This document shows, one piece after another, positions 393 through 63,623 of a stretch of DNA of 64,000 nucleotides; positions within the stretch are counted from its first letter, which is position 1; the number at the start of each line of letters is the position of its first letter. Below the pieces are notes generated by a model. The model had not been told where the DNA came from and searched no databases. It was given only the letters and a program-made list of their open reading frames with translations. Made by a program: the position numbers and the translations under genes. Source of the DNA: a bacterium (lineage in GTDB: Bacteria > Patescibacteriota > Minisyncoccia > UBA6257 > GWB1-50-10); the NCBI GenBank assembly GCA_002686365.1, contig NZBZ01000004.1, positions 98,752-162,751 on the forward strand, written 5' to 3'.

Positions 393-2036
393 ATGTTATT
401 TAATGATTTAAAAAATTTGGTAAAGGGGGAGGTGAGAGATGACGAGGAGACACTTGAGGAATTTAGTCATGATACGAGTTTATTTGGGGTGAGGCCGAAG
501 GTAGTTGTTTCTCCGGAAGATGTAGAGGATGTAAAGACTCTTGTCCGTTATATTTCGGAGCATAAAGATTCGGATTCTTCTTTATCTTTGACTGCGCGGT
601 CTGGTGGAACTGATATGAGTGGTGGACCTCTTAATGAGTCTATTGTTCTTGATTTTATACCGCACTTTAATCATTTTTCAGTTGATTCTGAGAGTTTGTG
701 TGCAGAGATAGAGCCGGGCGTGTTTTATCGTGATTTTGAGAAGGAAACAGGGCCTAAGGGCGTGCTTATGCCGTCATATCCTGCCTCGAAGTCTATTGCA
801 GCTTTGGGAGGGATGGTTATGAATAATGCCGGAGGCGAGAAGACTCTTAGGTATGGTCAGACAAGAAAATTTGTAGAGGAAGTTCGCATGGTGCTTCGAG
901 ATGGGAATGAGTATTCGTTTGGGTCTTTAGAGGCGGAGGAATTGGAAAGAAAACTCCAGCAGGATGATTTTGAGGGAGAGGTATATCAAGGCGTGCATAA
1001 GCTCTTGGAGGAGCATTACAAGCTTGTTCAGAGCGCGCAGCCAAAGACTTCAAAGAATTCCGCGGGATACGCGCTTTGGGATGTTTGGGATAAGGAGTCG
1101 GGCAGATTTGATCTTTCTCAGCTTTTTGTTGGTTCGCAGGGAACTCTTGGCATTATGACAGGTGCGAAACTTCGTCTTATTAAAGAGAAGAAGCATAAGA
1201 TTTTGATGCCTGTGTTTTTATCGAGCTGGGATGAACTTCCGGAGATTGTGCAGGCAGTTTTGCCTCATGATCCGGAGAGCTTAGAGCTTTTTGATATTGA
1301 GACACTAAAATTGGGTCTTCGGTTTATGCCAGAGGTTGCAAAAAAGGCGGGGTCTAGTTTTATTCCGTTTGCGCTTAAGTTTTTGCCTGAGGTGTGGGTT
1401 GGAATTCGACTTATGGGTCTTCCTAAACTTGTTGTGCTTGTTCATCTGGCTGAAGATTCAGAGAGCGAGGTAAGGAGTAAGGCTGCAAAAGTTGATGCTC
1501 TGGTTCGGAGGTTTCATGTGTGCGCTCGGACAATTTATAGTGAGGAGGAGGCGGAAAAGTATTGGATAATGAGACGGGAGAGTTTTAATTTACTTAGGCA
1601 GCATGTAAAAGGGAAGAGAACAGCGCCTTTTATTGATGACTTTTGTATTTTTCCTAAGGATGTTCCTGAATTCTTGCCGAAACTTTTGAAGATTTTGAAG
1701 GAGCATAAGATTGCGGTAAATATCGCGGGACATGCTGGAGACGGGAATTTTCATATTATTCCTCTTATGGATTTGACCAAGGAGGAGGAGCAAGCAAAGA
1801 TTTGGGTTGTGGCAGATAAGGTTTATGCTCTTGTTCTGCAGTATGGCGGAACTATAACTGCAGAACATAATGACGGGCTTATTCGGAGTCCGTATTTGGA
1901 GAAAATGTATGGAAAGGAAGTTTATGCGTTATTTGAGGAGGTGAAGCGTATTTTTGACCCTGAAGGTATTTTTAATCCTGGAAAGAAGGTGGGGTCTAGC
2001 AAGAAGTACGCGATGAGGCATTTGAAACAAGAATAA
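393..2036 (+). CDS. FAD-linked oxidase (GlcD / D-lactate dehydrogenase-like, PCMH-type FAD-binding domain)
   Basis: 547-aa ORF. N-terminal FAD-binding signature ...LTARSGGTDMSGGPL...; C-terminal FAD-oxidase_C-like region. Confidence 0.65.
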   Translation: MLFNDLKNLVKGEVRDDEETLEEFSHDTSLFGVRPKVVVSPEDVEDVKTLVRYISEHKDSDSSLSLTARSGGTDMSGGPLNESIVLDFIPHFNHFSVDSESLCAEIEPGVFYRDFEKETGPKGVLMPSYPASKSIAALGGMVMNNAGGEKTLRYGQTRKFVEEVRMVLRDGNEYSFGSLEAEELERKLQQDDFEGEVYQGVHKLLEEHYKLVQSAQPKTSKNSAGYALWDVWDKESGRFDLSQLFVGSQGTLGIMTGAKLRLIKEKKHKILMPVFLSSWDELPEIVQAVLPHDPESLELFDIETLKLGLRFMPEVAKKAGSSFIPFALKFLPEVWVGIRLMGLPKLVVLVHLAEDSESEVRSKAAKVDALVRRFHVCARTIYSEEEAEKYWIMRRESFNLLRQHVKGKRTAPFIDDFCIFPKDVPEFLPKLLKILKEHKIAVNIAGHAGDGNFHIIPLMDLTKEEEQAKIWVVADKVYALVLQYGGTITAEHNDGLIRSPYLEKMYGKEVYALFEEVKRIFDPEGIFNPGKKVGSSKKYAMRHLKQE

Positions 2037-2262
2037 GGATTCACTCTTTCCTTTCTCTCGATGACTTGTCTTTGTTCAAAGAGAACTTATCTCGCTCGGC
2101 AAAAAATCTTTTACGGAATACACCGAACTCGCTTCGCTCAGACAACGGCGTATTCCTAGATTTTTCTTCTCGCTCGGAGTTCTCTTGTTGACCAAAGATT
2201 TTTAGTCAGCTCTAAAAAAGAAAAAGTGAATTTATAGAGGAGATCTCATTGTCTCTGGGGTT
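2037..2262 (+). repeat. 3'-UTR repeat family B, copy 1; related copies at 23254-23440 and 61340-61560, and a fragment at 57916-58030
   Basis: A ~100-nt core (...CTCGCTCGGCAAAAAATCTTTTACGGAATACACCGAACTCGCTTCGCTCAGACAAC...TTTTTCTTCTCGCTCGG...) is about 80% identical to the segment after alaS and similar to the segment after groEL. Confidence 0.5.
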
Positions 2263-2282
2263 GGTGAGGGAGGTCTGAAGGT

Positions 2283-2306
2283 AGCCCCGCCTTGGCGGGG
2301 CTTTTG
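2283..2306 (+). terminator. Rho-independent terminator (AGCCCCGCC-TTGG-GGCGGGGCT plus T-run), preceded by a conserved GGGAGGTCTGAAGGT motif
   Basis: 9-bp GC stem followed by TTTTGTTT. The same hairpin type recurs at 23464-23490 and 48620-48648. Confidence 0.55.
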
Positions 2307-2317
2307 TTTAGTGTAAT

Positions 2318-8457: not shown

Positions 8458-9720
8458 ATGCGGCAAACAGAACTTTTTACTAGAACTAGGAAAGAGGCGC
8501 CTAAAGATGAGGTGTCAGTAAATGCGCGGCTTTTAATGCGTGCTGGTTTTGTGAATAAGCTTATGGCTGGGGTATATTCCCTGCTTCCTTTGGGCTTGCG
8601 TGTGCATCAGAAGATAGAGAATATTATTCGTCGAGAGATGGATGCGATCGGGGGGCAGGAGCTTTTAATGCCTACGCTTCAGCCAAAGGCGAATTGGGAT
8701 AAGACAGACAGGTGGGAGACATATGACTCTCTCTTTCGATTTACGAGTCATTACACAAAGAATGAGTATGCTTTAGGTCCTACGCATGAGGAGGTGGTAA
8801 CGCCTCTGGTTCAGGATCAGAATCTCTCGTATAAGGATTTTCCTGTTTATGTATATCAGATTCAGACTAAGTTTCGGGATGAGCCAAGAGCAAAGTCCGG
8901 GCTTTTGAGGGGCAGAGAGTTTTCTATGAAGGATTTGTACTCATTTCATACGAATGAGAAGGACTTGGAGAAGTATTATGAGAAGGCAAGAGATGCGTAC
9001 TTTAAGATTTTTAAAGAGGTTGGACTTGGTGATGTGACGTACTTAACTTTTGCGTCAGGCGGGTCGTTTTCAAAGTACTCCCACGAGTTTCAGACAGTTA
9101 CAGATGCTGGAGAGGATATTATTTACTTGTGTAATAAGTGTAAGGTGGCAGTTAATAAGGAGATTATTCATGAGCAGAAGGACTGCCCAGAGTGCGGAGA
9201 GAAGAAGCTAAAAGAGGAGAAGGCAGTTGAAGTTGGAAATATATTTAAGTTAAAGACTAAGTATTCGTCTGCGTTTGGGTTGAAGTTTAAGGATGAGAAG
9301 GGAAAAGAGGGAGATGTAATAATGGGGTGTTATGGAATTGGGCTGACTCGGCTTTTGGGTACGGTTGTTGAGGCTCATTATGATAAGGATGGGATGATTT
9401 GGCCTGAGGCAGTTGCGCCATTTGCAGTACATCTTATTCGGCTTGGGATAGATTCTAAGGTAGTGAAGTTTGCAGATGATGTTTATAAAAAACTTGAGAA
9501 GAATAATGTTGAAGTTTTATATGATGACAGGGACGCGTCAGCTGGAGAGAAGTTTGCTGATTCAGATTTGATTGGGATTCCTTATCGGGTTGTGGTTAGT
9601 GAGAAGACCCTTCGACAGGCTCAGGGCAAGCTGGAAAAGAAGAAGGTTGAGTTAAAAAAGAGAAGTGAGAAGAAGGAGAAGTTGGTTGGGGTAGATGAGT
9701 TAATGAAGTTGGGGGCATAG
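8458..9720 (+). CDS. proS: Prolyl-tRNA synthetase, short form without the INS editing domain
   Basis: N-terminus MRQTELFTRTRKEAPKDEVSVNARLLMRAGFVNKLMAGVYSLLPLGLRVHQKIENIIRREMD matches bacterial ProRS. A zinc-ribbon CNKCK...CPECGEKK and a C-terminal anticodon-binding region are present. The track's GTG start at 8422 overlaps the upstream gene, so the ATG at 8458 is more likely. Confidence 0.8.
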   Translation: MRQTELFTRTRKEAPKDEVSVNARLLMRAGFVNKLMAGVYSLLPLGLRVHQKIENIIRREMDAIGGQELLMPTLQPKANWDKTDRWETYDSLFRFTSHYTKNEYALGPTHEEVVTPLVQDQNLSYKDFPVYVYQIQTKFRDEPRAKSGLLRGREFSMKDLYSFHTNEKDLEKYYEKARDAYFKIFKEVGLGDVTYLTFASGGSFSKYSHEFQTVTDAGEDIIYLCNKCKVAVNKEIIHEQKDCPECGEKKLKEEKAVEVGNIFKLKTKYSSAFGLKFKDEKGKEGDVIMGCYGIGLTRLLGTVVEAHYDKDGMIWPEAVAPFAVHLIRLGIDSKVVKFADDVYKKLEKNNVEVLYDDRDASAGEKFADSDLIGIPYRVVVSEKTLRQAQGKLEKKKVELKKRSEKKEKLVGVDELMKLGA

Positions 9721-9726
9721 GAAAGA

Positions 9727-9886
9727 TCTCTTTTTCTCGTTCGTAAGTCTCCACACATTAAAATTCTTTATTCGCTCATTACGGCAATTTGCCGCCCTGT
9801 TTCGCTTTGCTCCACGGGCACCCGGCAAATTGTCTATTCGCTCATAGAATTTAAGATGTGTTTCAACACACTCACTCTGAAAAAAA
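9727..9886 (+). repeat. Interspersed repeat family A, copy 1 (~160 bp); other copies at 48329-48485 and 63338-63495
   Basis: The copies are ~95% identical and each starts 1-9 nt after a stop codon (proS, uppS, and the hypothetical gene ending at 63336). The element carries a 12-bp inverted repeat, CGGCAATTTGCCG versus CGGCAAATTGCC, and an internal ATTCGCTCAT direct repeat. No ORF is conserved across the copies. Confidence 0.7.
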
Positions 9887-9957
9887 GTTCTTTCCTAAAG
9901 GGGAAGATGGTTTTTGTAATCTTCTGTGGGGAGGTGGTGGGAGGGCTGTTGGTGGCT

Positions 9958-9996
9958 CACTTCGTCCCGATTGGGGACTCGTGAGCTTTTTTATAT
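9958..9996 (+). terminator. Two-tier terminator hairpin GCTCAC-TTCG-TCCC...GGGAC-TCG-TGAGC plus T-run
   Basis: Followed by TTTTTTATAT. The equivalent hairpin at 63528-63570 has compensatory base changes in the inner stem (GTCCC/GGGAC versus TTCCG/CGGAA). Confidence 0.55.
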
Positions 9997-21570: not shown

Positions 21571-23253
<1,683 letters not shown>

Positions 23254-23440
23254 TACTTTCTCTTTCCTCGTTTCGTGCGCTTCGCTCGAATTTTCTCATC
23301 TTTACTTGTCGTAAGAAATAACGAAATTTCGCGAACTCGCTTCGCTCAAACACCGCTCGATTTCTATTTCTTGATACTCCTCGTTCAGTGAGCATTCTCT
23401 CGCTACGCGATACTCAACAAAGGAAAGATAAAGTATCTTT
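23254..23440 (+). repeat. 3'-UTR repeat family B, copy after groEL
   Basis: ...CGCGAACTCGCTTCGCTCAAACACCGCTCGATTTCTATTTCTTGATAC... and ...CGCGATACTCAACAAAGGAAAG... are shared with the copies at 2037, 61340 and 57916. Confidence 0.45.
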
Positions 23441-23463
23441 GGGGTTGGAGGGTGATTATTGAA

Positions 23464-23490
23464 AGCCCCGCCTTGGCGGGGTTTTTGGTT
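23464..23490 (+). terminator. Rho-independent terminator AGCCCCGCC-TTGG-CGGGGTTTTT
   Basis: Same hairpin family as at 2283 and 48620. Confidence 0.5.
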
Positions 23491-24155: not shown

Positions 24156-24734
24156 ATGTTTTTAGGTATTTCTATTGGTTTGTGGGTTGTTATCGGGGTC
24201 GTTCTTATTGTTGTACTGTGGTTTATCGGTACATATAACCGATTTGTGCGGCTTAGGAATCGCGTAGATGAGGCATGGTCGGATATTGACGTGCAGTTAA
24301 AGCGTCGCGCTAATCTTATCCCTAATGTTATAGAGACTGTAAAGGGGTATGCAAAGCATGAAGAGGGAGTGTTTACAAAGGTAACAGATGCTAGAACGCG
24401 TGTGATGGATGCGGAGAAAAAGGGTGACGTAAAGGGAACAGCACAGGCTGAAAATATGCTTTCCGGCGCACTGAAGACTCTTTTCGCGGTTTCAGAGAAT
24501 TATCCTGATTTGAAGGCAAATGCGAACTTTTTGGATTTGCAGAGAGAGCTTGCTGATACAGAGAATAAGATTCAGGCATCACGCAGATTCTATAACACGA
24601 ACGTGAAAGAACTGAACGTGAAGATAGATTCTGTGCCGAGCAATGTTGTGGCAAGTATGATTGGCGTTAAGAAGCGTGAGTACTTTGAGGTTGAGGAAGA
24701 GGGAGAAAGGAAGCCGACTAAGGTTAGCTTCTAG
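24156..24734 (+). CDS. lemA: LemA family membrane protein
   Basis: An N-terminal TM segment followed by ...YNRFVRLRNRVDEAWSDIDVQLKRRANLIPN... (LemA signature). Confidence 0.75.
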   Translation: MFLGISIGLWVVIGVVLIVVLWFIGTYNRFVRLRNRVDEAWSDIDVQLKRRANLIPNVIETVKGYAKHEEGVFTKVTDARTRVMDAEKKGDVKGTAQAENMLSGALKTLFAVSENYPDLKANANFLDLQRELADTENKIQASRRFYNTNVKELNVKIDSVPSNVVASMIGVKKREYFEVEEEGERKPTKVSF

Positions 24735-24775
24735 CTTCTAGCTTTTAGCTTATAGCTTCATTAGCTTATAGCTTT
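24724..24775 (+). repeat. Tandem TAGCTTN heptamer repeats (family D), seven units, overlapping the lemA stop codon
   Basis: TTAGCTTCTAGCTTCTAGCTTTTAGCTTATAGCTTCATTAGCTTATAGCTTTT. A 30-nt stretch is identical to the one after rpoD. Confidence 0.55.
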
Positions 24776-24823
24776 TATTTTTAGTAGATAATAGTTACAG
24801 ACTAAAGACTATTAGCCGCGTTA

Positions 24824-26517: not shown

Positions 26518-26557
26518 ACGATGCAGTTATGTGACGGTCGTGCTATAATTGCATCGT
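26518..26557 (+). promoter_or_regulatory. Hairpin element E (arms ACGATGCA/TGCATCGT, inner ACGGTCGTG) overlapping a TATAAT (26544-26549) and the GTG start of the downstream gene
   Basis: It forms a direct repeat pair with 27085-27124 (~85% identical). The -10-like TATAAT is 6 nt before the start codon, so the transcript is likely leaderless. Confidence 0.4.
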
Positions 26558-27056
26558 GGGTGTTGCAGATGACATTTTAACAATACTTTTTAGCTATTCC
26601 GCTGGGTATAAGCGTCTGCGTCAATTGACGTATGGGGGCTCTCCTTATCAATCGTCAGATTCTCGAAGGAAGATTAGAGATGAAACTCTTCGTTCTACAC
26701 TTTCTCGAATGAGGAAGAATAAGCTTGTGTCCCGCAAGGGGGATGAATGGGTTATCACCGCGAAAGGCAAGGCTTTTTATCGTCGTCGTAGGGAAAAGCG
26801 GAAACTTGAAGAGATTTCTGATGAATTGCGAAGTAGAAAGAAGTCTGTGATTATTGCGTTTGATGTTCCAGAAGAAAGGCGTGTTATTCGCGCATGGTTG
26901 CGGAGAGAATTAGTATTTTTAGGATTTGAGCCTATTCAGAAGAGTGTTTGGTTTGGTCCGGGTCCTTTGCCCGAGATATTTATTCAAGAATTGGGTGATA
27001 GAGATCTTTTGGGCTGTTTAAAATTTTTTAGGGCGACTGAGGATGATGTTGTTTAA
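26556..27056 (+). CDS. Winged-helix + Cas2/PaaX-like domain protein (166 aa), paralog 1
   Basis: The N-terminal wHTH region is ...TLSRMRKNKLVSRKGDEWVITAKGKAF.... The C-terminus VIIAFDVPEERRVIRAWLRRELVFLGFEPIQKSVWFGP matches the Cas2 N-terminal strand pattern (hhhYDI...RR...L...G.R.Q.SVF) and the PaaX middle domain. 57% identity-level paralog at 50061-50546. Confidence 0.5.
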   Translation: MGVADDILTILFSYSAGYKRLRQLTYGGSPYQSSDSRRKIRDETLRSTLSRMRKNKLVSRKGDEWVITAKGKAFYRRRREKRKLEEISDELRSRKKSVIIAFDVPEERRVIRAWLRRELVFLGFEPIQKSVWFGPGPLPEIFIQELGDRDLLGCLKFFRATEDDVV

Positions 27057-27124: not shown

Positions 27125-27699
27125 TGGTTGGTTTTTGATTGATAGATTAATGCTTGAGGGTTTTGGGGATTTGCAGATTCGCGGATTTGCGGATTTATCT
27201 CATTGTTTGTATATTGTTTGTACGTTCTTTGACCTATGGAATGGAGAAAATGCGCTATGTCGTTAAGAAAAGGCGTCAGGCGGCAGGTTCGCAAGAGGCG
27301 CGCTTCTAAGGCGCGCAGAGAGGCTCTGGTTAATGAGCAGTTCTTAAGTCTAGTCGGTCGAATTCCAGGAGAAGGAGAATTGGATCGTCTTGCTGCTCAG
27401 ATATAATTCGGAGATGCTCAGCCCTTGTCTGAGGCATTGGGCTTTGTGGGCGCCTATGTGGTGGCAACTGATGATCGTGATGTCTGGGTAAGTGTCCGCT
27501 TTAATAGCGCCACCAGGCAGATCTTCGGTGTGTCGCGGCCGCCCTCTAATGAGCATCTTGACAGCTTGCACAATCTCAGTGCCTGTGGGGAGTCTTCTGG
27601 TTCTGATTGGGTTTCGTCGTAGACGTCCCGCATGCCTTTATGGATGCGGGACGTTGTCATGTTTAGATAATGCTTATAACTTGAGAAGTTTGGATTTTT

Positions 27700-27733
27700 C
27701 CATGTATCAGTGTACTAGTACACTGATACATGG
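27700..27733. repeat. 34-bp perfect palindrome CCATGTATCAGTGTAC-TA-GTACACTGATACATGG
   Basis: Reverse-complement identity checked base by base. Located ~110 bp upstream of tRNA-Ser, and preceded by an 11-bp-stem hairpin at 27634-27667 (ACGTCCCGCAT...ATGCGGGACGT). Confidence 0.6.
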
Positions 27734-27841
27734 AGTGGGCGGAGCGGACTGCGGAGAGGACTTGAGAAATTTGGGGGTTTGGGTATTGTAAGTGTATTGA
27801 AGGTCGTTTTTTCCGCCAATTGGCGGATTCGGCGTACCAAT

Positions 27842-28077: not shown

Positions 28078-28200
28078 ACCGCGGAGCGACGGGTGAGGAG
28101 GAATTCCTGCCTACCGGCAGGCAGGTCACTCTTACATTCATTTAGCCATTCAACAATTCCATGGAATTGTTGAATGGGCGGGGGAGCGGGAATCCCACCT
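28078..28200 (+). repeat. Repeat family C, copy 1 (X module GAGCGACGGGTGAGGAGGAAT, 30-bp palindrome CATTCAACAATTCCATGGAATTGTTGAATG, Y module GGGCGGGGGAGCGGGAATCCCACCT)
   Basis: Near-identical copy at 31478-31565. Partial Y-X copy at 49937-49990, and a related hairpin at 33926-33948. Confidence 0.6.
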
Positions 28201-30599: not shown

Positions 30600-31427
30600 A
30601 TGCGTGGAGAAGATTTTTTTACAAGACATTCAACCAAACCAAAGGATGAAGATCCAGAATCCTCGGAATTTTCCGGCATTTCTGAAAAAGGGGTTGAACT
30701 TGCAAAAGAGAGAGCAGGAGAAATTTTAGCGAATTTAGAGAAACAAGAAAATGGAACTGTGATGTTAATTAGTGGTGTTTCGGAAATGCCGAGAACAAAA
30801 TCAACGGCCATGATTTATGGTCAGGAAATTAAAAATATAATAGAACTGCAAAAAATAGATGATGTGCTTGTTTTTTTGCCAGAGGATTTAGGGAATATTG
30901 ATGGATATACAAATAAAGTTAATTTTTTGATTGAACAAATTAAAGCAAATCCAAACAAAAAAATAGTATTGGATTTCCCGTTGTTTATTAAAGAACTTTC
31001 TTTCAAAGATAGATGGGCAGATGAAGAAGGAAATTTATCAGAATATACGAAACAATTATTAGAACGAAACAGTGACGATGACGAGGAAGCGATGAAGGAT
31101 TGGTTTGATAATCAAGGCAGAATTGATGATTTAATTGGTCCAAATCCAACTGAAGTTGCGGAGCAGCAATTGGCTGGAATTGAAAGATTAAGAGAGTTTG
31201 CCAAAAAATATATTTCAGACAGGCCATTAGTCATTGGTTCGGTTGGACATAGTTGGAGTTTAGACGCAGTTGCTGTTTATCTGGCAAACAACGGAGAAAT
31301 AAACAAAGAATCGTTTGAGAAAATGAAAGCTAAAATGATTGGAGAAACAAAAATGATTAAACTATCGGAACGAGATGGAAAACAAGTTTTGGAGTATGGA
31401 GATCTTGTAATTCCTTTAGAAAAATAA
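30600..31427 (+). CDS. Hypothetical protein (275 aa), possibly a degenerate histidine-phosphatase (SixA/PGM-like) fold
   Basis: The C-terminal PLVIGSVGHSWSLDAVAVYL resembles the second His motif of the histidine-phosphatase superfamily. The N-terminal RHG motif is replaced (VMLISGVSEMPRTKS). It is 6 nt downstream of the phosphotransferase gene. Confidence 0.4.
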   Translation: MRGEDFFTRHSTKPKDEDPESSEFSGISEKGVELAKERAGEILANLEKQENGTVMLISGVSEMPRTKSTAMIYGQEIKNIIELQKIDDVLVFLPEDLGNIDGYTNKVNFLIEQIKANPNKKIVLDFPLFIKELSFKDRWADEEGNLSEYTKQLLERNSDDDEEAMKDWFDNQGRIDDLIGPNPTEVAEQQLAGIERLREFAKKYISDRPLVIGSVGHSWSLDAVAVYLANNGEINKESFEKMKAKMIGETKMIKLSERDGKQVLEYGDLVIPLEK

Positions 31428-31477: not shown

Positions 31478-31565
31478 GGTGAGGAGGAATCCCACTCCTA
31501 CATTCATTTAGTCATTCAACAATTCCATGGAATTGTTGAATGGGCGGGTGAGCGGGAATCCCACC
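31478..31565 (+). repeat. Repeat family C, copy 2 (same X, palindrome and Y modules)
   Basis: ...GGAGCGACGGGTGAGGAGGAATCCCACTCCTACATTCATTTAGTCATTCAACAATTCCATGGAATTGTTGAATGGGCGGGTGAGCGGGAATCCCACCT... Confidence 0.6.
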
Positions 31566-31594
31566 TCCTCTAGCTAGCCTTAGGTGGGTTTTAT

Positions 31595-47607: not shown

Positions 47608-48327
47608 TTGAAATGGATAAATAATATGGAAAATGTTCCACAACATGTTGCTGCTATCCCTGATGGGAATAGGCGGTGGGCAAAGAAGCGGGGCCTTCCC
47701 GGTACTGCTGGCCATACAGAAGGGGTAAAGCGTTTTTATGATGTAATGGAGGAGGCGTTTGATAAGGGCGTCAAGTACTTTACGTTTTGGGGCGCATCAG
47801 AGAGTAATCTTACCAATCGTACAAAGGTAGAGGTGAAATTTTTGATGGATATTTTTCAAAATGAGATTTTGCGGCATTTTGATTCAAAGAAGTTTAAGGA
47901 GAATAAGATTCGGGTTCGGGTTCGCGGCAAGGGTGTGGAAATGATTGATAATCCAAAGCTTACTGAGACTGTGAAAAAGCTTGAGGAGGAGTCTGCGGAG
48001 TTTACAGATAAGAACTTAACAATTCTTTTTGGATATAGCGGGACTACAGAGATACGTGAGGCGATTTCTAAAATAAAGGAAGAGGATTTGGAAGTTACTG
48101 ATGAGAATATAAAGAAGTCTTTGTGGACTGGGGATTTGCCGCCAGTAGATTTTGTGATAAGAACTGGAATAGAAGGAGATCCTCATGTTTCTGCTGGATT
48201 TATGATGTGGCAGACAGCAGAGAGTCAGCTTTACTTTACAGAAATGTGCTGGCCTGATTTTGGAAAGAAGGAGCTTGCAAAGGTTTTGGAAGAGTATGGG
48301 GCAAGGGAGAGGAGGTTGGGGAAATAA
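47608..48327 (+). CDS. uppS: Undecaprenyl-diphosphate synthase
   Basis: HVAAIPDGNRRWAKKRGLP... is the canonical cis-prenyltransferase motif. Confidence 0.85.
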   Translation: MKWINNMENVPQHVAAIPDGNRRWAKKRGLPGTAGHTEGVKRFYDVMEEAFDKGVKYFTFWGASESNLTNRTKVEVKFLMDIFQNEILRHFDSKKFKENKIRVRVRGKGVEMIDNPKLTETVKKLEEESAEFTDKNLTILFGYSGTTEIREAISKIKEEDLEVTDENIKKSLWTGDLPPVDFVIRTGIEGDPHVSAGFMMWQTAESQLYFTEMCWPDFGKKELAKVLEEYGARERRLGK

Positions 48328-48328
48328 A

Positions 48329-48485
48329 ATCCTTTTTCTCGTTCGTAAGTCTCCACACATTAAAATTCTTTATTTGCTCATTACGGCAATTTGCCGCCCT
48401 GTTTCGCTTTGCTCCACGGGCACCCGGCAAATTGCCTATTCGCTCATAGAATTTAAGATGTGTTTCAACACACTCACTCTGAAAA
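48329..48485 (+). repeat. Interspersed repeat family A, copy 2
   Basis: Starts 2 nt after the uppS TAA; ~95% identical to copies 1 and 3. Confidence 0.7.
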
Positions 48486-48619
48486 ATAATTTTATTTTTC
48501 TATGGGAAGTCGTTCTAGGTGCTTTTTACAAAGTAACTTTTTTAAGTCGTCTCAAGAAAGAAAAGATGAATTGTGAGTAATAGAATTTTTCCTCATTCTG
48601 TAGTGGGATGGAGGAGGTC

Positions 48620-48648
48620 TGTAGGTAGCCCCGCCAGGGCGGGGCTTT
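48620..48648 (+). terminator. Rho-independent terminator AGCCCCGCC-AGG-GCGGGGCT plus T7, preceded by GGAGGAGGTCTGTAGGT
   Basis: GC-rich hairpin followed by TTTTTTT. Confidence 0.55.
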
Positions 48649-48697
48649 TTTTGTAATTTCTTGAACCTTTTGGGAGGTTTGGTACAATTGGTTTTGT

Positions 48698-49865: not shown

Positions 49866-49894
49866 AAAAGGAGCTCTCATGAGCTCCTTTTGAG
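49866..49894 (+). terminator. Terminator hairpin AAGGAGCTC-TCAT-GAGCTCCTT plus TTTT
   Basis: 9-bp stem followed by a U-run, directly after tRNA-Pro. Confidence 0.5.
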
Positions 49895-50019
49895 ACTCTA
49901 TGTGGTCGGGAATCGAAGGGAACCCCGACATTTATCGTCGGGGTGGGGGAGCGGGATTCCCGGCCTCCTATTGAGCGACGTGAGATTCCCCGGCCCGACA
50001 GCGATTTTTATAGATTTTT

Positions 50020-50054
50020 ATAACATTTCCTACGATCGTAGGAAATGTTATAAT
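50020..50054 (+). promoter_or_regulatory. 32-bp perfect palindrome ATAACATTTCCTACGA|TCGTAGGAAATGTTAT overlapping a TATAAT (50049-50054) 6 nt before the start codon: candidate autoregulated, leaderless promoter-operator
   Basis: Perfect 16-bp arms with the same ACGATCGT core as hairpins 26518, 27085 and 50556. Confidence 0.45.
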
Positions 50055-50060
50055 TTGTGT

Positions 50061-54254: not shown

Positions 54255-54716
54255 ATGAAGAAATTTTTAATTTTTGTGATTTTGGTGGCTGCAGTCGGGG
54301 TTTTGGTATTTTTGCTTCGAACAGATAGGAGTCTTTTGCCTGGGTCTGGAGATGAAGGTTCGGAAGATGCGGCGACAGAGGAGGATGCTGCTGCAGACTA
54401 TGGAGAAAATACAATAGTGTACACTGATGATGGATTCTCTCCTGTTGAGATTATTGTAAGTGTTGGTGAGATAGTTACATTTGTGAATGACTCAAGCCGT
54501 GTGGTTTGGCCTGCGACAGCAGAGCATCCTACACATACTGTCTATCCTGGGAGTGATATAACAAAGTGTGATTCTGCAGAGGCAGCAGATATGTTTGACT
54601 CCTGTGGACCTGTGATGTCAGATGAGAGTTGGTCTTTTGCGTTTGATGAGGTAGGAGAGTGGGGATACCACGATCATCTGGATTCTAGTTATTTTGGAAA
54701 AGTTATCGTTGAATAA
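54255..54716 (+). CDS. Secreted or membrane-anchored cupredoxin-like protein (plastocyanin/amicyanin fold suspected)
   Basis: An N-terminal TM or signal segment. GEIVTFVNDSSRVVWPATAEHPTH resembles the amicyanin GDTVTWVN.D..HN strand. The C-terminal YHDHL...GKVIV lacks the canonical Cys. Confidence 0.35.
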   Translation: MKKFLIFVILVAAVGVLVFLLRTDRSLLPGSGDEGSEDAATEEDAAADYGENTIVYTDDGFSPVEIIVSVGEIVTFVNDSSRVVWPATAEHPTHTVYPGSDITKCDSAEAADMFDSCGPVMSDESWSFAFDEVGEWGYHDHLDSSYFGKVIVE

Positions 54717-59473: not shown

Positions 59474-61339
59474 ATGACCATTCATGAGGTTCGAAAAAAG
59501 TACCTCGAGTTTTTTGAGAGTAGGGGGCATGTTGTTATTTCTTCAGCCTCTCTTTATCCAGAGAATGATCCAACAACTTTGTTTACGGGTTCTGGCATGC
59601 AGTCTATGATTCCGTATCTGCTTGGCGAGGAGTATCCAAAGGGCAATAGAGTTGCTGATTCGCAAAAGTGTTTTCGAACACAGGACATAGAAGAAGTGGG
59701 CGATAATCGGCATACGACATATTTTGAGATGCTTGGGAACTGGTCTTTGGGCGACTATTTTAAGAAGGAACAGATTCCGTGGGTGTTTGAATTTTATACA
59801 AAGGTTCTTGGACTTGATCCTAAGCGGCTTTACGTTACGGTATTTTGTGGAAATGAGGATATAGGTATTCCAAAAGATGAAGAGAGCGTGAATATTTGGA
59901 AGGAGGTGTTTTCAAATGTTGGGATTGAGGCAAAGGATGTGGATAATTCAGAAGATAGGGGCATGTGTGATGGGAGAATTTTTTATTATGATGAGACTAA
60001 AAATTGGTGGTCACGCGCAGGAGCTCCTCAAGATATGCCGGAGGGAGAGTTGGGTGGGCCGGATTCGGAAGTGTTTTGGGATTTTGACCCTGATGAGTTA
60101 AAGAAAACTCATGAAAATTCAGAGTTTTCAAAAAAACCATGCCATGTGAATTGTGATTGCGGGAGATTTTTGGAGATTGGGAATAGCGTGTTTATGGAGT
60201 ATCAGAAGACTGCGGATGGATTTGAGCAGTTGAAGCAGAAGAATGTAGACTTTGGCGGAGGGCTTGAGAGAATGGTTGCGGCAGCTTTAGATGAGCAGGA
60301 CATGTTAAGGATTCCCGTGTTTACATCTTCTCGAAGAGTTTTAGAGTCTTTGTCTGGAAAAAAGTATGGTGATGACAAGGAAGAGACTCGCGCGTTTCGG
60401 GTTATTCTGGATCATTTGCGCGCCGCATCATTTCTTATGGGTGATGAGTGTGGAGTAGAGCCGTCGAATACTGATCAGGGATATGTTGTTCGTCGGCTTG
60501 TTAGAAGAGCTATTCGGTATGGAAGGCAGCTTGGGATAAAGGAGGGTCCTTGGACGCAAAAGCTTGTAGAGGCAGTTGCAGGCGAGTATGAGGAGTCGTA
60601 TCCGGAAATTCGTAAGAACGAGAAGCGAATTTCAAAATGGATGCAGGACGAGGAGGAGAAATTTATGAAGACTGTTGAGAGGGGACTGAAGGAACTGCAG
60701 AAGATGGAAAAGCCGACTGGCAAAGAGCTTTTTGTTCTTTATTCCACCTATGGATTTCCTCTTGAGATGAGCTTTGAGGAGCTTGGGACTTTGGCAAGTG
60801 ATCAAGAGGTGCTTACAGAGGAGTTTCATAAGGAGGCAAAGAAGCATGGTGAGCTTTCGCGGACTGCTTCAGCAGGGAAGTTTACCGGAGGATTGGCAGA
60901 TCAGTCAGAGGAGGTTATTCGTCTTCATACTGCAACGCATCTGCTGAATGAGGCTCTTCGGCAGAAAGTTGATCCTAGTATTACGCAGAAGGGATCAAAT
61001 ATAACATCAGAGCGGCTTCGATTTGACTTTAGTTTTGACAGGAAACTCACAGATAAGGAGGTTGCAGATGTTGAAGAGCTTGTGAATAAAAAGATAGGGG
61101 AGGGGATTTCAGTTGAGCGAAAGGAGATGCCTTTACAGAAGGCATTGGATTCCGGAGCACAGGCTGAGTTTGGAGCAAAATATCCTGATACGGTTTCCGT
61201 ATATTCTATTGGAGATTTTTCTAAGGAGCTTTGCGCAGGTCCGCATGTTTCAAGTACTTCGGAAATTGGGAAGTTTAAGGTTTTAAAGCAGGAGGCAGTT
61301 GCAGCAGGAGTGCGGAGGATTAAGGCTACGGTTGAGTGA
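59474..61339 (+). CDS. alaS: Alanyl-tRNA synthetase, short form lacking the C-terminal C-Ala domain
   Basis: The N-terminal catalytic core (...FFESRGHVVISSASLYPENDPTTLFTGSGMQ...WSLGDYFK...) and the editing-domain HxxxH (HTATHLLNEAL) plus CAGPHV are present. 621 aa. Confidence 0.85.
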   Translation: MTIHEVRKKYLEFFESRGHVVISSASLYPENDPTTLFTGSGMQSMIPYLLGEEYPKGNRVADSQKCFRTQDIEEVGDNRHTTYFEMLGNWSLGDYFKKEQIPWVFEFYTKVLGLDPKRLYVTVFCGNEDIGIPKDEESVNIWKEVFSNVGIEAKDVDNSEDRGMCDGRIFYYDETKNWWSRAGAPQDMPEGELGGPDSEVFWDFDPDELKKTHENSEFSKKPCHVNCDCGRFLEIGNSVFMEYQKTADGFEQLKQKNVDFGGGLERMVAAALDEQDMLRIPVFTSSRRVLESLSGKKYGDDKEETRAFRVILDHLRAASFLMGDECGVEPSNTDQGYVVRRLVRRAIRYGRQLGIKEGPWTQKLVEAVAGEYEESYPEIRKNEKRISKWMQDEEEKFMKTVERGLKELQKMEKPTGKELFVLYSTYGFPLEMSFEELGTLASDQEVLTEEFHKEAKKHGELSRTASAGKFTGGLADQSEEVIRLHTATHLLNEALRQKVDPSITQKGSNITSERLRFDFSFDRKLTDKEVADVEELVNKKIGEGISVERKEMPLQKALDSGAQAEFGAKYPDTVSVYSIGDFSKELCAGPHVSSTSEIGKFKVLKQEAVAAGVRRIKATVE

Positions 61340-61560
61340 TTTCACCCCTTCTTTCTTTCGTCTCCTTTTCCGTTCCTTAGATAACACAATTTTCACTCGT
61401 CAGAAAAAACTTACGGAAAAGAGTGAACTCGCTACGCTCAAACAACACTCTTTTCCTATTTTTTCTTTCTCGCTCAACGTGTTCTTTACGAAGGAACTCT
61501 TTTAAGTCGTCGAGAAGAAAGAAGCGGTGAAGTTAAGGAGGAAAATGTTTGGTTGAGGTT
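61340..61560 (+). repeat. 3'-UTR repeat family B, copy after alaS
   Basis: ...CACTCGTCAGAAAAAACTTACGGAAAAGAGTGAACTCGCTACGCTCAAACAAC...TTTTTTCTTTCTCGCTCAAC... Confidence 0.5.
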
Positions 61561-61608: not shown

Positions 61609-63336
61609 ATGGCGAAAGCAGGTTCAACAAAGAAGCTTTTTTTGGAGGCAGAGGATGATATAGATGAAGCATTGGAGAGGATTTCCGCGTTTGAAGGGAA
61701 GAATGTTGTTTTGAATATTCCAAAGGGTTCTGTGCTCGGAGGTTCTGTTAAGAACTTCCGTTTTTTGCGTAAGAAGACGGATGAGCTTGAGAAGAATTTG
61801 GTTATTGAGTCTGTTGATGATCATGTGCTTGAGCTTGCAGAGGTTGCTGATATTGATGCTGTAAATCCCGTGTTTCGTACAAAAGGCAAGGCAGTTGTTG
61901 ATATTGTTCCGGGCGGTTCTGGAGAGTCTCGTTCAGGGCGCAGTAAAAAGACTGAGAAAATATCTCTTCAGCAAGTAAAAGAAGAGGAGGTTGAAGAGGA
62001 AGAGGGTGAAGAAGAGCCTGACGCAGAGCCAGAGGAGAAAGCAGAGGATGTGGTTCAGGATGAGATTCCGCAAAAGGTAGTTCATTTTTGGGAGAGAGAT
62101 CGTGCAGCAAAGGCGCCTCAGCCCGCGAAGATGGGTTTTCTTTCGTTTTTGCAGAGAGGTAAGAAGTCGAAGGGCGGCATTCAGCTTCCTTCTGCGCGTT
62201 TTGTCCGGTTTGCTGTAGTTTTTCTTGTGATTATTGCTTTAGGTTGGGGACTTGCGACAATTCTTCCTAAGGCAACTATTACACTTGCGCTTAAGCGATA
62301 CCCAGTATCTTTTGTTGAGACGGTGAAGGTTGATACAAAGACTCCTCTGCCAAGCTTTGCCGGAGAGACGGTCTTTTTACCCGGAGAGCTTCTTACTGCA
62401 GTAAAAAATCTTGAGATGAGTTTTCCTGCTACTGGAGAGGATGAGGTAGAGCGGAAAGCAACAGGGAAGATTAAAATTTTTAATGAGTTTAGTTCAAAAT
62501 CTCAGGCTTTGGTTGCGCGTACTAGATTTGAGACGCCGGATGGGCTTGTATACCGATTGTTTGAGCAGGTCACTGTGCCTGGGGCAGATGTTGTAGAAGG
62601 GGAGATAGAGGCATCATCTATTGAGGTTGAGGTATATGCTGATGAAGCAGGAGAGGAGTATAACATTGGGCCGGTTCCGAAGTTTACTATTCCCGGATTT
62701 AAGGGAGGACCTCGGTACGATGGATTTTATGCCGCGTCCGTCGGGTCCATGAAGGGAGGATTTGTAGGAGTTCAGAGAGTTCCAACAGATGCGGACTTAG
62801 AGGTGGCTACAGAGACAATTACGGACAGCTTGCTTGATTCTCTTGAGGGAGAGCTTGCTATTTTAATGAGTGACAGCTTTAAAGTTTTTGATGACACAAC
62901 ATTGTTTCAGATAGTTCGGGAGGAGGTTTATCCGCCTTCCCCCGGAGAGGAGATGTTTAGCGTATTTGTTGAGGGGCAGCTTCAGCAGTTTGTGTTTCGG
63001 GAGGATGATTTGGAGGAGGCTCTTGTTGGCCGCGCTAAGGAGAGTTTAACAGAGGATGTGAGTTTTAATGTTGATGATTTTTCCGTGGAGTTTACAGACC
63101 TTTCAGTTGATTTGTCAGCTGAACGTTTACAGTTTGGAGTTGAGGGAGAGGCTGTGTTTATCGCGGACATTGATTCTTCTGGGCTTACAGCAGAGCTTTT
63201 AGGTAAGAGTTCTGAAGATGTGAAAAAGGAGATTTTTAAACTTCCTGGGCTTGATAGGGCACGTGTGTCGCTTTGGCCATTCTGGGTAAAGAAGGTTCCT
63301 GGGAAAGAAGGGAAGGTGACGATTGAGGTAGAATAA
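61609..63336 (+). CDS. Hypothetical membrane protein with a poly-Glu acidic segment
   Basis: EEEVEEEEGEEEPDAEPEEKAED, then the TM segment FVRFAVVFLVIIALGWGLATIL, then a large C-terminal domain. Confidence 0.45.
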   Translation: MAKAGSTKKLFLEAEDDIDEALERISAFEGKNVVLNIPKGSVLGGSVKNFRFLRKKTDELEKNLVIESVDDHVLELAEVADIDAVNPVFRTKGKAVVDIVPGGSGESRSGRSKKTEKISLQQVKEEEVEEEEGEEEPDAEPEEKAEDVVQDEIPQKVVHFWERDRAAKAPQPAKMGFLSFLQRGKKSKGGIQLPSARFVRFAVVFLVIIALGWGLATILPKATITLALKRYPVSFVETVKVDTKTPLPSFAGETVFLPGELLTAVKNLEMSFPATGEDEVERKATGKIKIFNEFSSKSQALVARTRFETPDGLVYRLFEQVTVPGADVVEGEIEASSIEVEVYADEAGEEYNIGPVPKFTIPGFKGGPRYDGFYAASVGSMKGGFVGVQRVPTDADLEVATETITDSLLDSLEGELAILMSDSFKVFDDTTLFQIVREEVYPPSPGEEMFSVFVEGQLQQFVFREDDLEEALVGRAKESLTEDVSFNVDDFSVEFTDLSVDLSAERLQFGVEGEAVFIADIDSSGLTAELLGKSSEDVKKEIFKLPGLDRARVSLWPFWVKKVPGKEGKVTIEVE

Positions 63337-63337
63337 A

Positions 63338-63495
63338 CTCCTTTTTCTCGTTCGTAAGTCTCCACACATTAAAATTCTTTATTCACTCATTACGGCAATT
63401 TGCCGCCCTGTTTCGCTTTGCTTCACGGGCACCCGGCAAATTGCCTATTCGCTCATAGAATTTAAGATGTGCTCCAACACACTCACTCTGAAAAA
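63338..63495 (+). repeat. Interspersed repeat family A, copy 3
   Basis: Starts 2 nt after the TAA at 63334-63336. Confidence 0.7.
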
Positions 63496-63527
63496 GGAGT
63501 TTATTCTTATGGGTTTATGGGAGGTCT

Positions 63528-63570
63528 GATGGTAGCTCACTTCGTTCCGGCTCGGAACTAGTGAGCTTTT
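63528..63570 (+). terminator. Two-tier terminator hairpin GCTCAC-TTCG-TTCCG-GCT-CGGAA-CTAG-TGAGC plus T5
   Basis: Covaries with the hairpin at 9958-9996. Preceded by TGGGAGGTCTGATGGTA. Confidence 0.55.
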
Positions 63571-63623
63571 TAATTATGTATAGGGGTTTACATGTTTGGT
63601 TTTATGTGGCATAATTGTCCATT

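What the first reader, a model, noticed from the sequence alone, without database searches (positions are those of the whole stretch)
9727..9886. A ~160-bp element present three times at ~95% identity, each starting 1-9 nt after a stop codon (also 48329-48485 and 63338-63495)
The three copies are in the same orientation as the upstream genes (proS, uppS, and the hypothetical gene ending at 63336). They lie between the stop codon and a downstream intrinsic terminator, so they would be transcribed as 3' UTR. The element carries a 12-bp inverted repeat (CGGCAATTTGCCG / CGGCAAATTGCC) and an internal direct repeat ATTCGCTCAT. No ORF is conserved across the copies. Such near-identical copies at a fixed position relative to stop codons could mean a MITE-like element with a target preference, or a 3'-UTR-encoded structured RNA. 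Neither is a standard annotation category for reduced genomes.
Basis: seen in the sequence. Interest (0 to 1): 0.65.

Follow-up and report, generated by a model that had tools for sequence, protein, structure and literature searches.

The report
Stop-codon-abutting long hairpin repeat family
The three near-identical 160-base copies are real and are the youngest members of an undescribed family of long hairpin-forming repeats placed directly after stop codons in a marine Patescibacteria genome; their flanks, strand bias and loop motifs suggest a single-stranded-DNA hairpin element, not a classical transposon fragment or a simple 3'-UTR RNA.

Summary
In detail: three + strand copies (core 9730-9884, 48332-48486, 63341-63495), 94-97.5% identical, each between a stop codon and an intrinsic terminator. 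There is no Rfam match, no transposase in 83 kb, and no other copy in GTDB representative genomes, JGI metagenomes or IMG/VR.

New findings:
1. Each copy has copy-specific inverted flanks that include the stop codon. There is no direct target duplication.
2. The window holds three more, diverged elements of the same build ("family 2": 2037-2233, 23253-23436, 61337-61535). All six point the same way.
3. Both families occur in relatives sharing 52-54% protein identity, with compensatory stem changes. Other relatives have empty orthologous sites.
4. All six are C-rich on the mRNA strand (GC skew -0.24, against +0.27 for the genome), and the complementary strand always folds better.
5. On that complementary strand the "direct repeat" reads ATGAGCGAATA, a published self-pairing tandem G:A duplex. 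The family-2 apex reads GCGNAGC, the "mini-hairpin DNA" motif.
6. The 20-nt family-2 loop has 20 exact hits in viral contigs (about 0.2-0.4 expected), often again as a hairpin loop.

Best reading: a non-autonomous palindromic DNA element family, REP/ERIC/MITE-like in lifestyle, whose relevant structure is probably a single-stranded DNA hairpin. How it spreads is unresolved.

The parts
9718..9897 (+). Family-1 copy A. The 19-nt arms 9718-9736/9879-9897 comprise the copy-specific flanks TAGGAAAGA (includes the proS stop TAG) / TCTTTCCTA plus the outer element ends.
   Evidence: (I8: 19-nt arms, 89% complementary, 142 nt apart)
48322..48497 (+). Family-1 copy B. The 17-nt arms 48322-48338/48481-48497 comprise the flanks AAATAAAAT (includes the uppS stop TAA, which is native coding sequence) / ATTTTATTT plus the outer element ends.
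   Evidence: I23; the relative's uppS ends in the same RERRLGK*
63330..63507 (+). Family-1 copy C, with a perfect 18-bp basal stem AGAATAAACTCCTTTTTC/GAAAAAGGAGTTTATTCT that includes the stop TAA.
   Evidence: (I3: 100% complementary)
2037..2233 (+). Family-2 element R1, directly after the stop of the FAD-oxidase gene 393..2036. Apical loop GAACTCGCTTCGCTCAGACA.
23253..23436 (+). Family-2 element R2, directly after the stop of the Cpn60 (GroEL-type) chaperonin gene 21577..23253.
   Evidence: (I16)
61337..61535 (+). Family-2 element R3, directly after the alaS stop TGA (59474..61339).
   Evidence: (I14)
48505..48590 (+). Remnant of the right half of a family-2 element, just downstream of copy B. 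It is homologous to R3 61470-61535.
   Evidence: (D11, 81%)
2269..2308 (+). GGAGGTCTGAAGGTAGC plus a GC hairpin plus a T run: the terminator module that follows R1.
   Evidence: (D6)
23450..23489 (+). Degenerate copy of the same terminator module, after R2.
   Evidence: (D6)
48613..48652 (+). The same terminator module, after copy B.
   Evidence: (D6)
63520..63572 (+). GGAGGTCTGATGGTAGC plus the terminator GCTCAC...GTGAGC and a T run, after copy C.
9928..9992 (+). G-rich tract plus the terminator GCTCAC...GTGAGC and a T run, after copy A (a degenerate form of the module).

Best explanation
The three copies are the most recently homogenised or spread subfamily of a lineage-specific family of non-autonomous, rod-like palindromic DNA elements, 180-200 nt long. 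The elements occupy the space between a stop codon and the transcription terminator in this marine Patescibacteria genome and its relatives.

Shown:
- Several families share one architecture: a basal stem touching the stop codon, two inner stems, and TCGCTC-type motifs in both internal loops and at the apex.
- All six elements in the window have the same orientation.
- Different family members, or nothing at all, occupy the same site in different genomes.
- There is no direct target duplication, but there are copy-specific inverted flanks.
- The composition is C-rich on the mRNA strand.
- The complementary strand folds better in every case.

Inferred:
- The structure that matters is a single-stranded DNA hairpin of the strand complementary to the mRNA. 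That strand carries ATGAGCGAATA facing ATGAGCGAATA (tandem sheared G:A pairs) and a GCGNAGC mini-hairpin apex.
- The arms are kept complementary, and are extended outward into the gene end, by intrastrand (fold-back) template switching during replication. This would create the inverted flanks and the layered structure.
- Copies arise by copying or replacing pre-existing hairpins (gene conversion or template switching) or through a trans-acting enzyme encoded elsewhere. Classical cut-and-paste is unlikely.
- Being transcribed as 3' UTR is a consequence of where such insertions are tolerated. It may still affect mRNA stability or translation termination.
For: - Copy number and identity.
- Flanks: each copy's own flanks are in-register complements (11, 11 and 12 of 16 positions; chance P 3e-4 to 2e-5 each). 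Cross-copy pairs score 4-9, and there is no direct repeat of 2 nt or more.
- Native left arm: the left arm of copy B is native uppS coding sequence, because the relative L019 ends in the same RERRLGK* without any palindrome.
- Second family: same build and same orientation. The family-2 covariance model picks up family-1 copy C full-length at E=0.048.
- Turnover: a remnant lies beside copy B. The orthologous alaS and 575-aa-gene ends are empty in L019 and L026, carry other hairpins in L021 and L024, and carry a family-2 element in L022.
- Homologues in relatives: a family-1-like element in L022 (1-135) and one in L019 (13675-13822). 11 of 17 family-2 pairs and 4 of 15 family-1 pairs show double compensatory changes.
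- Layering: the L019 element runs from stop codon to stop codon between convergent genes and corresponds to the inner layers of family 1.
- Strand asymmetry: GC skew is -0.15 to -0.29 in all six, against +0.25 in other intergenic DNA. The minus strand is more stable in 6/6 with RNA parameters (z-scores against 13, 36-38) and with DNA parameters.
- Motifs: ATGAGCGAATA occurs four times in the window, only on the minus strand and only inside copies A-C. d(ATGAGCGAATA)2 and GCGNAGC are published stable DNA motifs.
- No transposase, reverse transcriptase or integrase in the window or flanks.
- Strain SNPs: 2 of about 7 fall inside copies, at exactly the positions where copies differ, and both change toward the consensus. 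This fits gene conversion.
- Precedent: template switching as a keeper and maker of perfect inverted repeats (PMC5941160).
Against: - No mechanism of spread was demonstrated, and no enzyme was identified.
- Only 83 kb of one genome could be examined, so genome-wide copy number and orientation are unknown.
- Uniform orientation relative to the upstream gene also holds for one minus-strand gene in L019. That points to transcription rather than to DNA alone.
- Near-exact conservation of a 20-nt loop between organisms sharing about 54% protein identity, and in unrelated viral contigs, suggests a recognised functional site rather than neutral selfish DNA.
- Junction mismatches in copies A and B (2 each, next to GAAAAA) are not predicted by a clean fold-back copy.
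- The right flank of copy B may be partly pre-existing T-rich sequence of the family-2 remnant.
- The SNPs inside repeats could be assembly mixing.
- Folding programs do not model sheared G:A pairs, so the DNA-motif argument rests on the literature, not on a test made here.
Confidence: 0.45

Rival explanations
1. Cis-acting 3'-UTR RNA. The sense transcript folds into a long hairpin that starts at the stop codon. It acts on the upstream mRNA by blocking 3' exonucleases, by providing an RNase III site, or by slowing ribosomes at termination. The last effect is reported for E. coli REP sequences within about 15 nt of stop codons (Liang, Rudd and Deutscher 2015; cited from my own knowledge). The conserved C-rich loops would bind a protein.
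For: - All six hairpins begin between -7 and +1 nt of a stop codon and lie upstream of a separate terminator.
- All are sense to the upstream gene, including one behind a minus-strand gene in L019.
- Sense folds give z = -5.4 to -6.1 for family 1.
- The stems show compensatory changes.
- The GGAGGTCTGNAGGTAGC-terminator module occurs only after elements in the window and is conserved in L022.
Against: - The sense strand folds worse than the antisense strand in 6/6 elements. Sense z-scores for family 2 are only -0.9 to -3.0.
- Mismatches are C.A/U.C in the sense strand, where a selected RNA helix would show G.U.
- With downstream context the basal stem of copy A is not in the minimum-energy fold.
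- The L033 and L036 homologues are antisense to the adjacent genes.
- There is no Rfam family.
Confidence: 0.2
2. A functional single-stranded-DNA signal. The hairpin on the strand complementary to the mRNA would be a priming or initiation or recombination site (ssi/sso-like, or an HUH-nuclease or recombinase substrate), recognised through its conserved 20-nt loop. The copies would be kept because of that function.
For: - The GCGNAGC mini-hairpin sits at the family-2 apex, and ATGAGCGAATA pairs with itself in family 1, both on the same strand.
- Such mini-hairpins occur at primase-dependent ssDNA initiation sites of G4, St-1 and alpha3 phages and at ssiA of RSF1010 (PMC13037366).
- The 20-mer has 20 exact hits in viral contigs, against about 0.2-0.4 expected. 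They include a group of filamentous-vibriophage-like contigs near the RstA/RstR replication module.
- In 6 loci the motif is again closed by an unrelated stem.
Against: - No priming or nicking enzyme is linked to the motif, and the neighbouring proteins are unrelated to each other.
- The annotated vibriophages VAI2 and FR1 lack the 20-mer itself.
- In roughly half of the viral contexts the motif is not a hairpin loop.
- The structured strand appears to be the leading-strand template, which is not where priming signals are expected. This is an inference from GC skew and gene orientation.
Confidence: 0.15
3. An ordinary IS-derived MITE or a REPIN, mobilised by a transposase (an IS or RAYT/IS200-605 type) encoded elsewhere in the genome. 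The target would be the loops of pre-existing palindromes at gene ends, as IS1397 targets REP loops (cited from my own knowledge).
For: - 10-bp terminal inverted repeats, three near-identical copies and non-coding sequence.
- Inverted flanks would follow automatically from insertion into the centre of a palindrome.
- Palindromes are abundant in this genome and its relatives.
Against: - There is no direct duplication, not even 2 nt.
- Other gene ends in the window do not carry AT-rich palindromes over their stop codons.
- The site in relative L019 that corresponds to copy B has no palindrome.
- The termini are the least conserved part across the family.
- There is no transposase in 83 kb. The element has no match in 185,579 representative genomes or in IMG/VR.
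Confidence: 0.12
4. An independent small-RNA gene transcribed from the opposite strand (antisense to the 3' end of the upstream gene). The G-rich, better-folding strand would be the product.
For: - The minus strand folds better, with z = -3.3 to -7.8.
- The composition of that strand resembles the sense strands of this genome.
Against: - No promoter-like site was found on the minus strand next to any of the three copies.
- The downstream terminators are unidirectional for the + strand.
- There is no Rfam family.
Confidence: 0.05

Closest known systems
REP/BIME and ERIC (IRU) elements of enterobacteria; Correia elements of Neisseria (cited from my own knowledge; REP survey PMC3733652 seen only as a search listing)
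   Same: - Non-coding, imperfect palindromes, present in several copies.
- Located in transcribed intergenic DNA at the 3' ends of genes, upstream of terminators.
- They fold into hairpins.
- Some REPs within about 15 nt of a stop codon affect translation of the upstream gene.
   Different: - These elements are 180-200 nt rods, not 20-40-nt REPs.
- There is no GTAG/CGTC head and no TA duplication (copy A has AA...TT at the equivalent position).
- There is no sequence similarity to those families.
- The flanks are copy-specific inverted complements.
- Conservation is highest in the loops.
- Strand composition is strongly biased.
Repetitive hairpin-forming elements of compact organelle genomes (sponge mitochondria, PMC2800124)
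   Same: - Families of hairpin-forming repeats.
- They invade the short intergenic regions of a very compact genome.
- They differ between close relatives and have no associated enzyme.
   Different: - A different domain of life, with no homology.
- That abstract reports no stop-codon abutment, no inverted flanks and no conserved loop motif.
Template-switch (quasi-palindrome) mutagenesis (Ripley model; PMC5941160)
   Same: - It explains perfect or corrected inverted repeats.
- It explains compensatory-looking changes without selection on RNA.
- It explains outward growth of a palindrome by copying the adjacent flank in inverted orientation.
   Different: - It is a mutational process, not an element family.
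- It does not explain the shared, conserved loops or the appearance of the same core at three loci.
Mini-hairpin DNA GCGNAGC / GCGNNAGC at single-strand initiation sites (G4, St-1, alpha3 phages; ssiA of RSF1010; PMC13037366), and the d(ATGAGCGAATA)2 tandem G:A duplex (Chou, Cheng and Reid 1992)
   Same: - The exact motifs occur on the strand complementary to the mRNA.
- They sit where they would stabilise the hairpin: at the apex and across the internal 'loop'.
   Different: - Those are origins of small replicons with a known primase.
- Here the motifs lie in chromosomal elements behind housekeeping genes, and no partner enzyme is known.
- Function was not tested.
Integron attC sites
   Same: - Imperfect palindromes directly 3' of a gene.
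- Active as a folded single strand of one particular DNA strand.
- Variable stems.
   Different: - No RYYYAAC/GTTRRRY boxes.
- No array and no intI.
- The copies are 15-38 kb apart, behind proS, uppS, alaS and the Cpn60 chaperonin gene.

Membership tests
IS-derived MITE | Terminal inverted repeats | tested here: met
   CTCCTTTTTC...GAAAAAGGAG, perfect in copy C.
IS-derived MITE | Direct target-site duplication flanking each copy | tested here: not met
   No direct repeat of 2 nt or more at any of the three copies. The flanks are inverted complements.
IS-derived MITE | A parent IS or transposase with the same ends in the genome | tested here: inconclusive
   None in 83 kb.
REP / REPIN-RAYT | 20-40-nt palindromic unit with a conserved GTAG or CGTC head, plus a RAYT gene | tested here: not met
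   The unit is a single 155-200-nt hairpin. Reading the three aligned copies showed no GTAG/CGTC head at the element ends. No Y1-transposase gene lies in 83 kb; the whole genome was not seen.
ERIC / Correia type | TA target duplication and family consensus sequence | tested here: not met
   At the position equivalent to TA...TA in copies B and C, copy A has AA...TT (hand reading). The comparison with the ERIC primer sequences was made from memory only.
Integron attC | R''/R' core sites (RYYYAAC / GTTRRRY), a cassette array and an integrase | tested here: not met
   The core sites are absent on reading the ends. The copies are dispersed behind housekeeping genes. There is no integrase.
Any Rfam RNA family | Covariance-model match | tested here: not met
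   Only two tRNAs at gathering threshold in the window. Nothing on R3 or copy C at E<=10. Nothing in 12 viral loci that carry the loop motif.
Intrinsic terminator | Short GC-rich stem followed at once by a U run | tested here: not met
   The elements are 60-pair rods that are not followed by a U run. Separate canonical terminators lie 25-125 nt downstream.
IS200/IS605-type PATE | Separate subterminal hairpins at the left and right ends, a fixed 4-5-nt target 5' of the left end, and tnpA/tnpB nearby | tested here: not met
   There is one continuous hairpin. The left flanks differ (GGAAAGA / ATAAAAT / AATAAAC). No tnpA or tnpB lies in 83 kb.
Single-strand initiation signal (ssi/sso) | Hairpin on one DNA strand that directs primer synthesis | not testable with these tools
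   Only the motif resemblance (GCGNAGC; PMC13037366) and the strand asymmetry are available.

The most novel reading that the evidence does not exclude
The elements belong to a cross-phylum class of strand-specific single-stranded-DNA hairpins. Their 20-nt loop, GAACTCGCTWCGCTCARACA (a GNA mini-hairpin on the complementary strand), would be read by a conserved replication or recombination enzyme. They would insert or grow by making an inverted copy of the adjacent gene end. That would be a mode of spread with an inverted rather than a direct target duplication, which I know of for no bacterial element.
Probability: 0.2. Interest if true: 0.8.

Novelty: new variant of a known kind. Interest (0 to 1): 0.62.

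Why it matters
Patescibacteria have very small genomes, and repeats in them are rarely described. Six such elements in 83 kb, at about 8% of gene ends, is a substantial load.

The family combines features that are usually separate. It turns over like mobile DNA. Its loops are conserved and its stems show compensatory changes, like a functional structure. It has a fixed position at stop codons. It shows a strand asymmetry that runs against the strong mutational skew of the genome.

Three consequences would follow:
- If the inverted flanks are made during insertion or by fold-back synthesis, this is a natural, repeated example of template switching building long hairpins at defined places. That would be a route to new structured 3' ends.
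- If the 20-nt loop is a recognised site, it marks an unknown protein-nucleic acid interaction shared by CPR bacteria, Pasteurellaceae prophages and other phage-like contigs.
- On the practical side, the repeat yields at least one spurious database protein (P0121).

Tried and rejected
- Exact-pattern scans. Scanning GTDB representative genomes for both arms of the inner repeat gave 7 chance palindromes in unrelated phyla. The JGI metagenome scan found only the same strain. IMG/VR had no family-1 hit.
- Six-frame peptide search, meant to find other copies through spurious ORFs, returned only copy B.
- Coding reading: rejected, because the substitutions are mostly non-synonymous and there are no homologues.
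- TA or other direct duplication: rejected.
- Ribosome-controlled alternative pairing (basal stem against a terminator-like hairpin): copy A has such an alternative (9889-9907), but constrained folds gave no consistent switch across the six elements.
- Promoters on the minus strand next to the elements: none found.
- A protein shared by the viral loci that carry the 20-mer: none; the neighbours are NrdD, Mor, terminase, a PLD-like protein and a cNMP-binding protein.
- blastn of the Pasteurellaceae-type element against phage and plasmid collections: no match.
- Literature search for the printed motif: only coincidental primers.
- Resemblances recalled from memory to boxA, to 5S rRNA (GAUGGUAG) and to the 5' end of 16S rRNA were too weak and were not pursued.
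- GGAGGTCTGNAGGTAGC in IMG/VR (11 hits) is within chance for 16 specified bases. It was used only as a control on database size.

Full report
1. OBSERVATION

The three copies exist as described. A 53-nt core pattern hits only 9780, 48382 and 63391, all on the + strand, with at most one mismatch; none is expected by chance. Alignment and BLAST give 94-97.5% identity over 155-177 nt. There is no further copy, even a diverged one, in about 83 kb of this genome: the window plus L017 upstream and L009 downstream.

The upstream genes are proS, uppS and a 575-aa protein with no Pfam match. A canonical terminator follows each copy. The organism is a marine (TARA) Patescibacteria MAG. The closest homologue of the 575-aa protein is only 56% identical, so no close relative is available.

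One + frame is open through all three copies, and copy B's ORF is in public databases as a 94-aa protein, P0121. However, I counted by hand from the translations that 5 of the 7 inter-copy differences are non-synonymous. A six-frame peptide search of 5.8 billion proteins found nothing else. The element is non-coding. No Rfam family matches.

(a) Inverted flanks. Each copy is bracketed by sequence that differs between copies but is complementary within a copy, and that contains the stop codon:
- A: TAGGAAAGA...TCTTTCCTA
- B: AAATAAAAT...ATTTTATTT
- C: AGAATAAACTCC...GGAGTTTATTCT

These appear and as I3, I8 and I23. In register, a copy's own flanks pair at 11, 11 and 12 of 16 positions (chance P 3e-4, 3e-4 and 2e-5). 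Cross-copy combinations pair at 4-9 positions. There is no direct repeat of even 2 nt. The left arm of copy B is native coding sequence, because the uppS gene of relative L019 ends in the same RERRLGK* and is followed by a tRNA, not a palindrome.

(b) A second family. Three other gene ends carry 185-200-nt hairpins that start at the stop codon: the FAD-oxidase gene (2037-2233), the Cpn60 chaperonin gene (23253-23436) and alaS (61337-61535). They have a 20-nt apical loop GAACTCGCT(T/A)CGCTCA(A/G)ACA and TCGCTC-type motifs in both internal loops. Family 1 has the same plan: basal stem, weak region, stem ACACAT.AAAATTCT, internal loop ATTCGCTCAT on both sides, stem CGGCAATTTGCCG, and apex TTTCGCTTTGCTCCA. 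A covariance model of family 2 finds family-1 copy C full-length, on the same strand, at E=0.048. All six elements point the same way. Right behind copy B lies the right half of a family-2 element, so one family member has displaced another at the uppS end.

(c) A conserved tail. GGAGGTCTGNAGGTAGC followed by a GC hairpin and a T run occurs three times in the window, only after elements R1, B and C. Degenerate forms follow A and R2.

3. RELATIVES (proteins 40-56% identical)

- L022 (54% identity) has a family-2 element directly after the orthologue of the 575-aa gene, the site where this genome has family-1 copy C. Its apex reads CGGAAAAGAGCGAACTCG[GC-hairpin insert]CTCAAACAGCGCTCTTTTCC. L022 also has a family-1-like element (CGCGATTTTGCCACCCTG...CGGGTACCCGGCAAAATCGC). 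Both are followed by the same terminator module.
- L019 (52% identity) has an element between convergent genes whose outer arms start exactly at both stop codons (free energy -128 kcal/mol, z = -10). Its inner hairpin is homologous to the inner layers of family 1. Its alaS and 575-aa-gene ends are empty, with spacers of 24 and 41 nt.
- L026 is empty at both sites. L021, L024 and L028 carry other long, often perfect, hairpins next to stop codons.

The stems differ between genomes by double compensatory changes: 11 of 17 pairs in family 2 and 4 of 15 in family 1. The family is therefore old in this clade, turns over at individual sites, and is most conserved in its loops, not at its ends.

4. 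WHICH STRAND

The genome has a very strong GC skew: +0.27 overall, +0.25 in other intergenic DNA. All six elements have the opposite skew, -0.15 to -0.29.

The strand complementary to the mRNA folds better in all six. With RNA parameters it is 8-17 kcal/mol more stable. Z-scores are -7.8, -5.3, -3.3 and -4.0, against -6.1, -2.6, -0.9 and -3.0 for the sense strand (against 13, 36-38). With DNA parameters it is 2.6-6.7 kcal/mol more stable.

The reason can be read in the sequence. Where the sense strand has C.A and U.C mismatches, the other strand has G.U and G.A.

It occurs four times in the window, only there. d(ATGAGCGAATA)2 is the published duplex with two tandem sheared G:A pairs (Chou, Cheng and Reid 1992, listed in PMC10085684).

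The family-2 apex reads GAGCG(A/T)AGCGAG, which contains GCGNAGC. This is the 'mini-hairpin DNA' found at primase-dependent single-strand initiation sites (PMC13037366). These are resemblances to published DNA motifs. They were not tested here.

5. THE LOOP OUTSIDE THIS CLADE

The 20-mer has 20 exact hits in IMG/VR. A 16-base control pattern gave 11 hits, which puts the chance expectation for the 20-mer near 0.2.

The hits fall into at least 12 contexts, from high-GC to AT-rich. In six loci the motif is again closed by a stem of unrelated sequence (null P <= 0.02 each). Two loci (L033, L036) match the whole family-2 model, including the flanking TCGCT motifs (E = 1e-12 and 3e-11). L036 is a P2-like prophage region carrying the Pasteurellaceae uptake sequence. 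There the element lies between two late genes and antisense to them.

One group of seven contigs has flanking sequence similar to filamentous vibriophages, near RstA/RstR. The annotated phages themselves lack the 20-mer.

No common neighbouring protein was found. There is no Rfam family, no printed occurrence in the searchable literature, and no blastn match for the L036 element in the phage or plasmid collections.

6. INTERPRETATION

The elements share the lifestyle of REP, ERIC and Correia elements and of organellar hairpin repeats (PMC2800124). They fail the defining tests for MITE (no direct duplication), REP/REPIN, attC, PATE and terminator.

I favour a palindromic DNA element whose selected structure is a single-stranded DNA hairpin of the strand complementary to the mRNA. 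Its arms would be kept and extended by intrastrand template switching (mechanism reviewed in PMC5941160). This accounts for:
- the inverted flanks;
- the layered structure (compare L019 with family 1);
- compensatory-looking changes;
- the two strain SNPs that convert copies toward the consensus.

It does not explain the fixed orientation relative to genes, the loop conserved across phyla, or how the same core reached three loci. A sense 3'-UTR RNA role, a functional ssDNA signal, a classical MITE with a distant transposase, and an antisense sRNA remain as rivals, with the weights given above.

No step of the mechanism has been shown experimentally. The flank geometry, the strand asymmetry, the family structure and the turnover are shown by computation.

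7. VERDICT

This is a real, non-trivial repeat family, not previously catalogued in the resources I could search. It is a new variant of the palindromic intergenic repeat theme, with two unusual properties (inverted flanks and strand-specific DNA-type motifs) and an unexplained, widely distributed loop. Interest is moderate to high. The main limitation is that only 83 kb of the host genome and no close relative could be examined.

Noticed in passing
window 24725-24780, 57877-57915, 59400-59450, 54714-54745: Runs of the heptamer TAGCTTN start at, or directly after, the stop codons of four genes: LemA, rpoD, a DUF5667 protein and the 153-aa ORF 54255..54716. The pattern TAGCTTNTAGCTT hits 10 times against 0.55 expected. 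The runs put UAG in several frames and resemble spaced-UAG protein-binding sites.
   Followed up: partly
window 2269-2308, 48613-48652, 63520-63572; L022 189-225 and 4374-4410: The terminator module GGAGGTCTGNAGGTAGC plus GC hairpin plus T run is conserved in sequence between this genome and a relative whose homologue of the 575-aa protein is only 54% identical. That is unusual for a terminator. In the window it occurs only behind hairpin elements.
   Followed up: partly
window 28127-28200 and 31493-31566: Two 74-nt copies (96% identical) each contain a perfect 32-nt palindrome, CCATTCAACAATTCCATGGAATTGTTGAATGG. One overlaps the start of the PPDK-like gene; the other lies in the 695-nt gap after 30600..31427.
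   Followed up: no
window 27699-27734 and 50018-50053; L009 16248-16285: Perfect 36-38-nt palindromes with no spacer lie in the two largest intergenic regions. L009 15800-16400 holds a further small hairpin family with CCCCGTTAGA arms.
   Followed up: no
whole window: GC skew is very strong and uniform (+0.22 to +0.36 per 8 kb), and about 87% of genes are on the + strand. The window lies entirely on one leading strand.
   Followed up: partly
window 9833 and 63385 (L018, L010): Assemblies from other samples differ from the window at only about 0.1 site per kb. Two of the roughly 7 differences lie inside family-1 copies, at positions where the copies differ, and both change toward the consensus. 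This is either gene conversion or read mixing during assembly.
   Followed up: partly
window 61557-61589 against L012 1-33: A 2.2-kb contig from another sample has a completely different 33 nt upstream of the -10 box of the 575-aa gene. The divergence starts about 55 nt beyond the end of element R3. It may be an alternative junction or a contig-end artefact.
   Followed up: partly
L019 1975-2180: ARAGORN calls a tRNA-Pro(TGG) at 2026-2097. It is flanked by what look like the 5' and 3' halves of a second tRNA-Pro, as if one tRNA gene sat inside the anticodon-loop region of another.
   Followed up: partly
window about 61555-61565; L026 about 4135, L022 about 2295, L024 about 3875, L021 about 2120: A DnaA-box-like TTATCCAC(T) is conserved upstream of the promoter of the 575-aa gene in several relatives. 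This genome has TTTTCCACT at the corresponding place.
   Followed up: no
window 26556-27056 and 49890-50546: Two paralogous PaaX_M (Cas2-like domain) regulators share an 85% identical 55-nt stretch (repeat D7).
   Followed up: no
window 48296-48580 (protein P0121): A 94-aa 'protein' deposited in NCBI and ENA is simply the open frame running through repeat copy B. It is probably a spurious gene call.
   Followed up: yes
window 9889-9907: The right flank arm of copy A can alternatively pair with the downstream GGGGAAGA to form a terminator-like hairpin followed by a T-rich tail. No equivalent was seen at copies B and C.
   Followed up: partly
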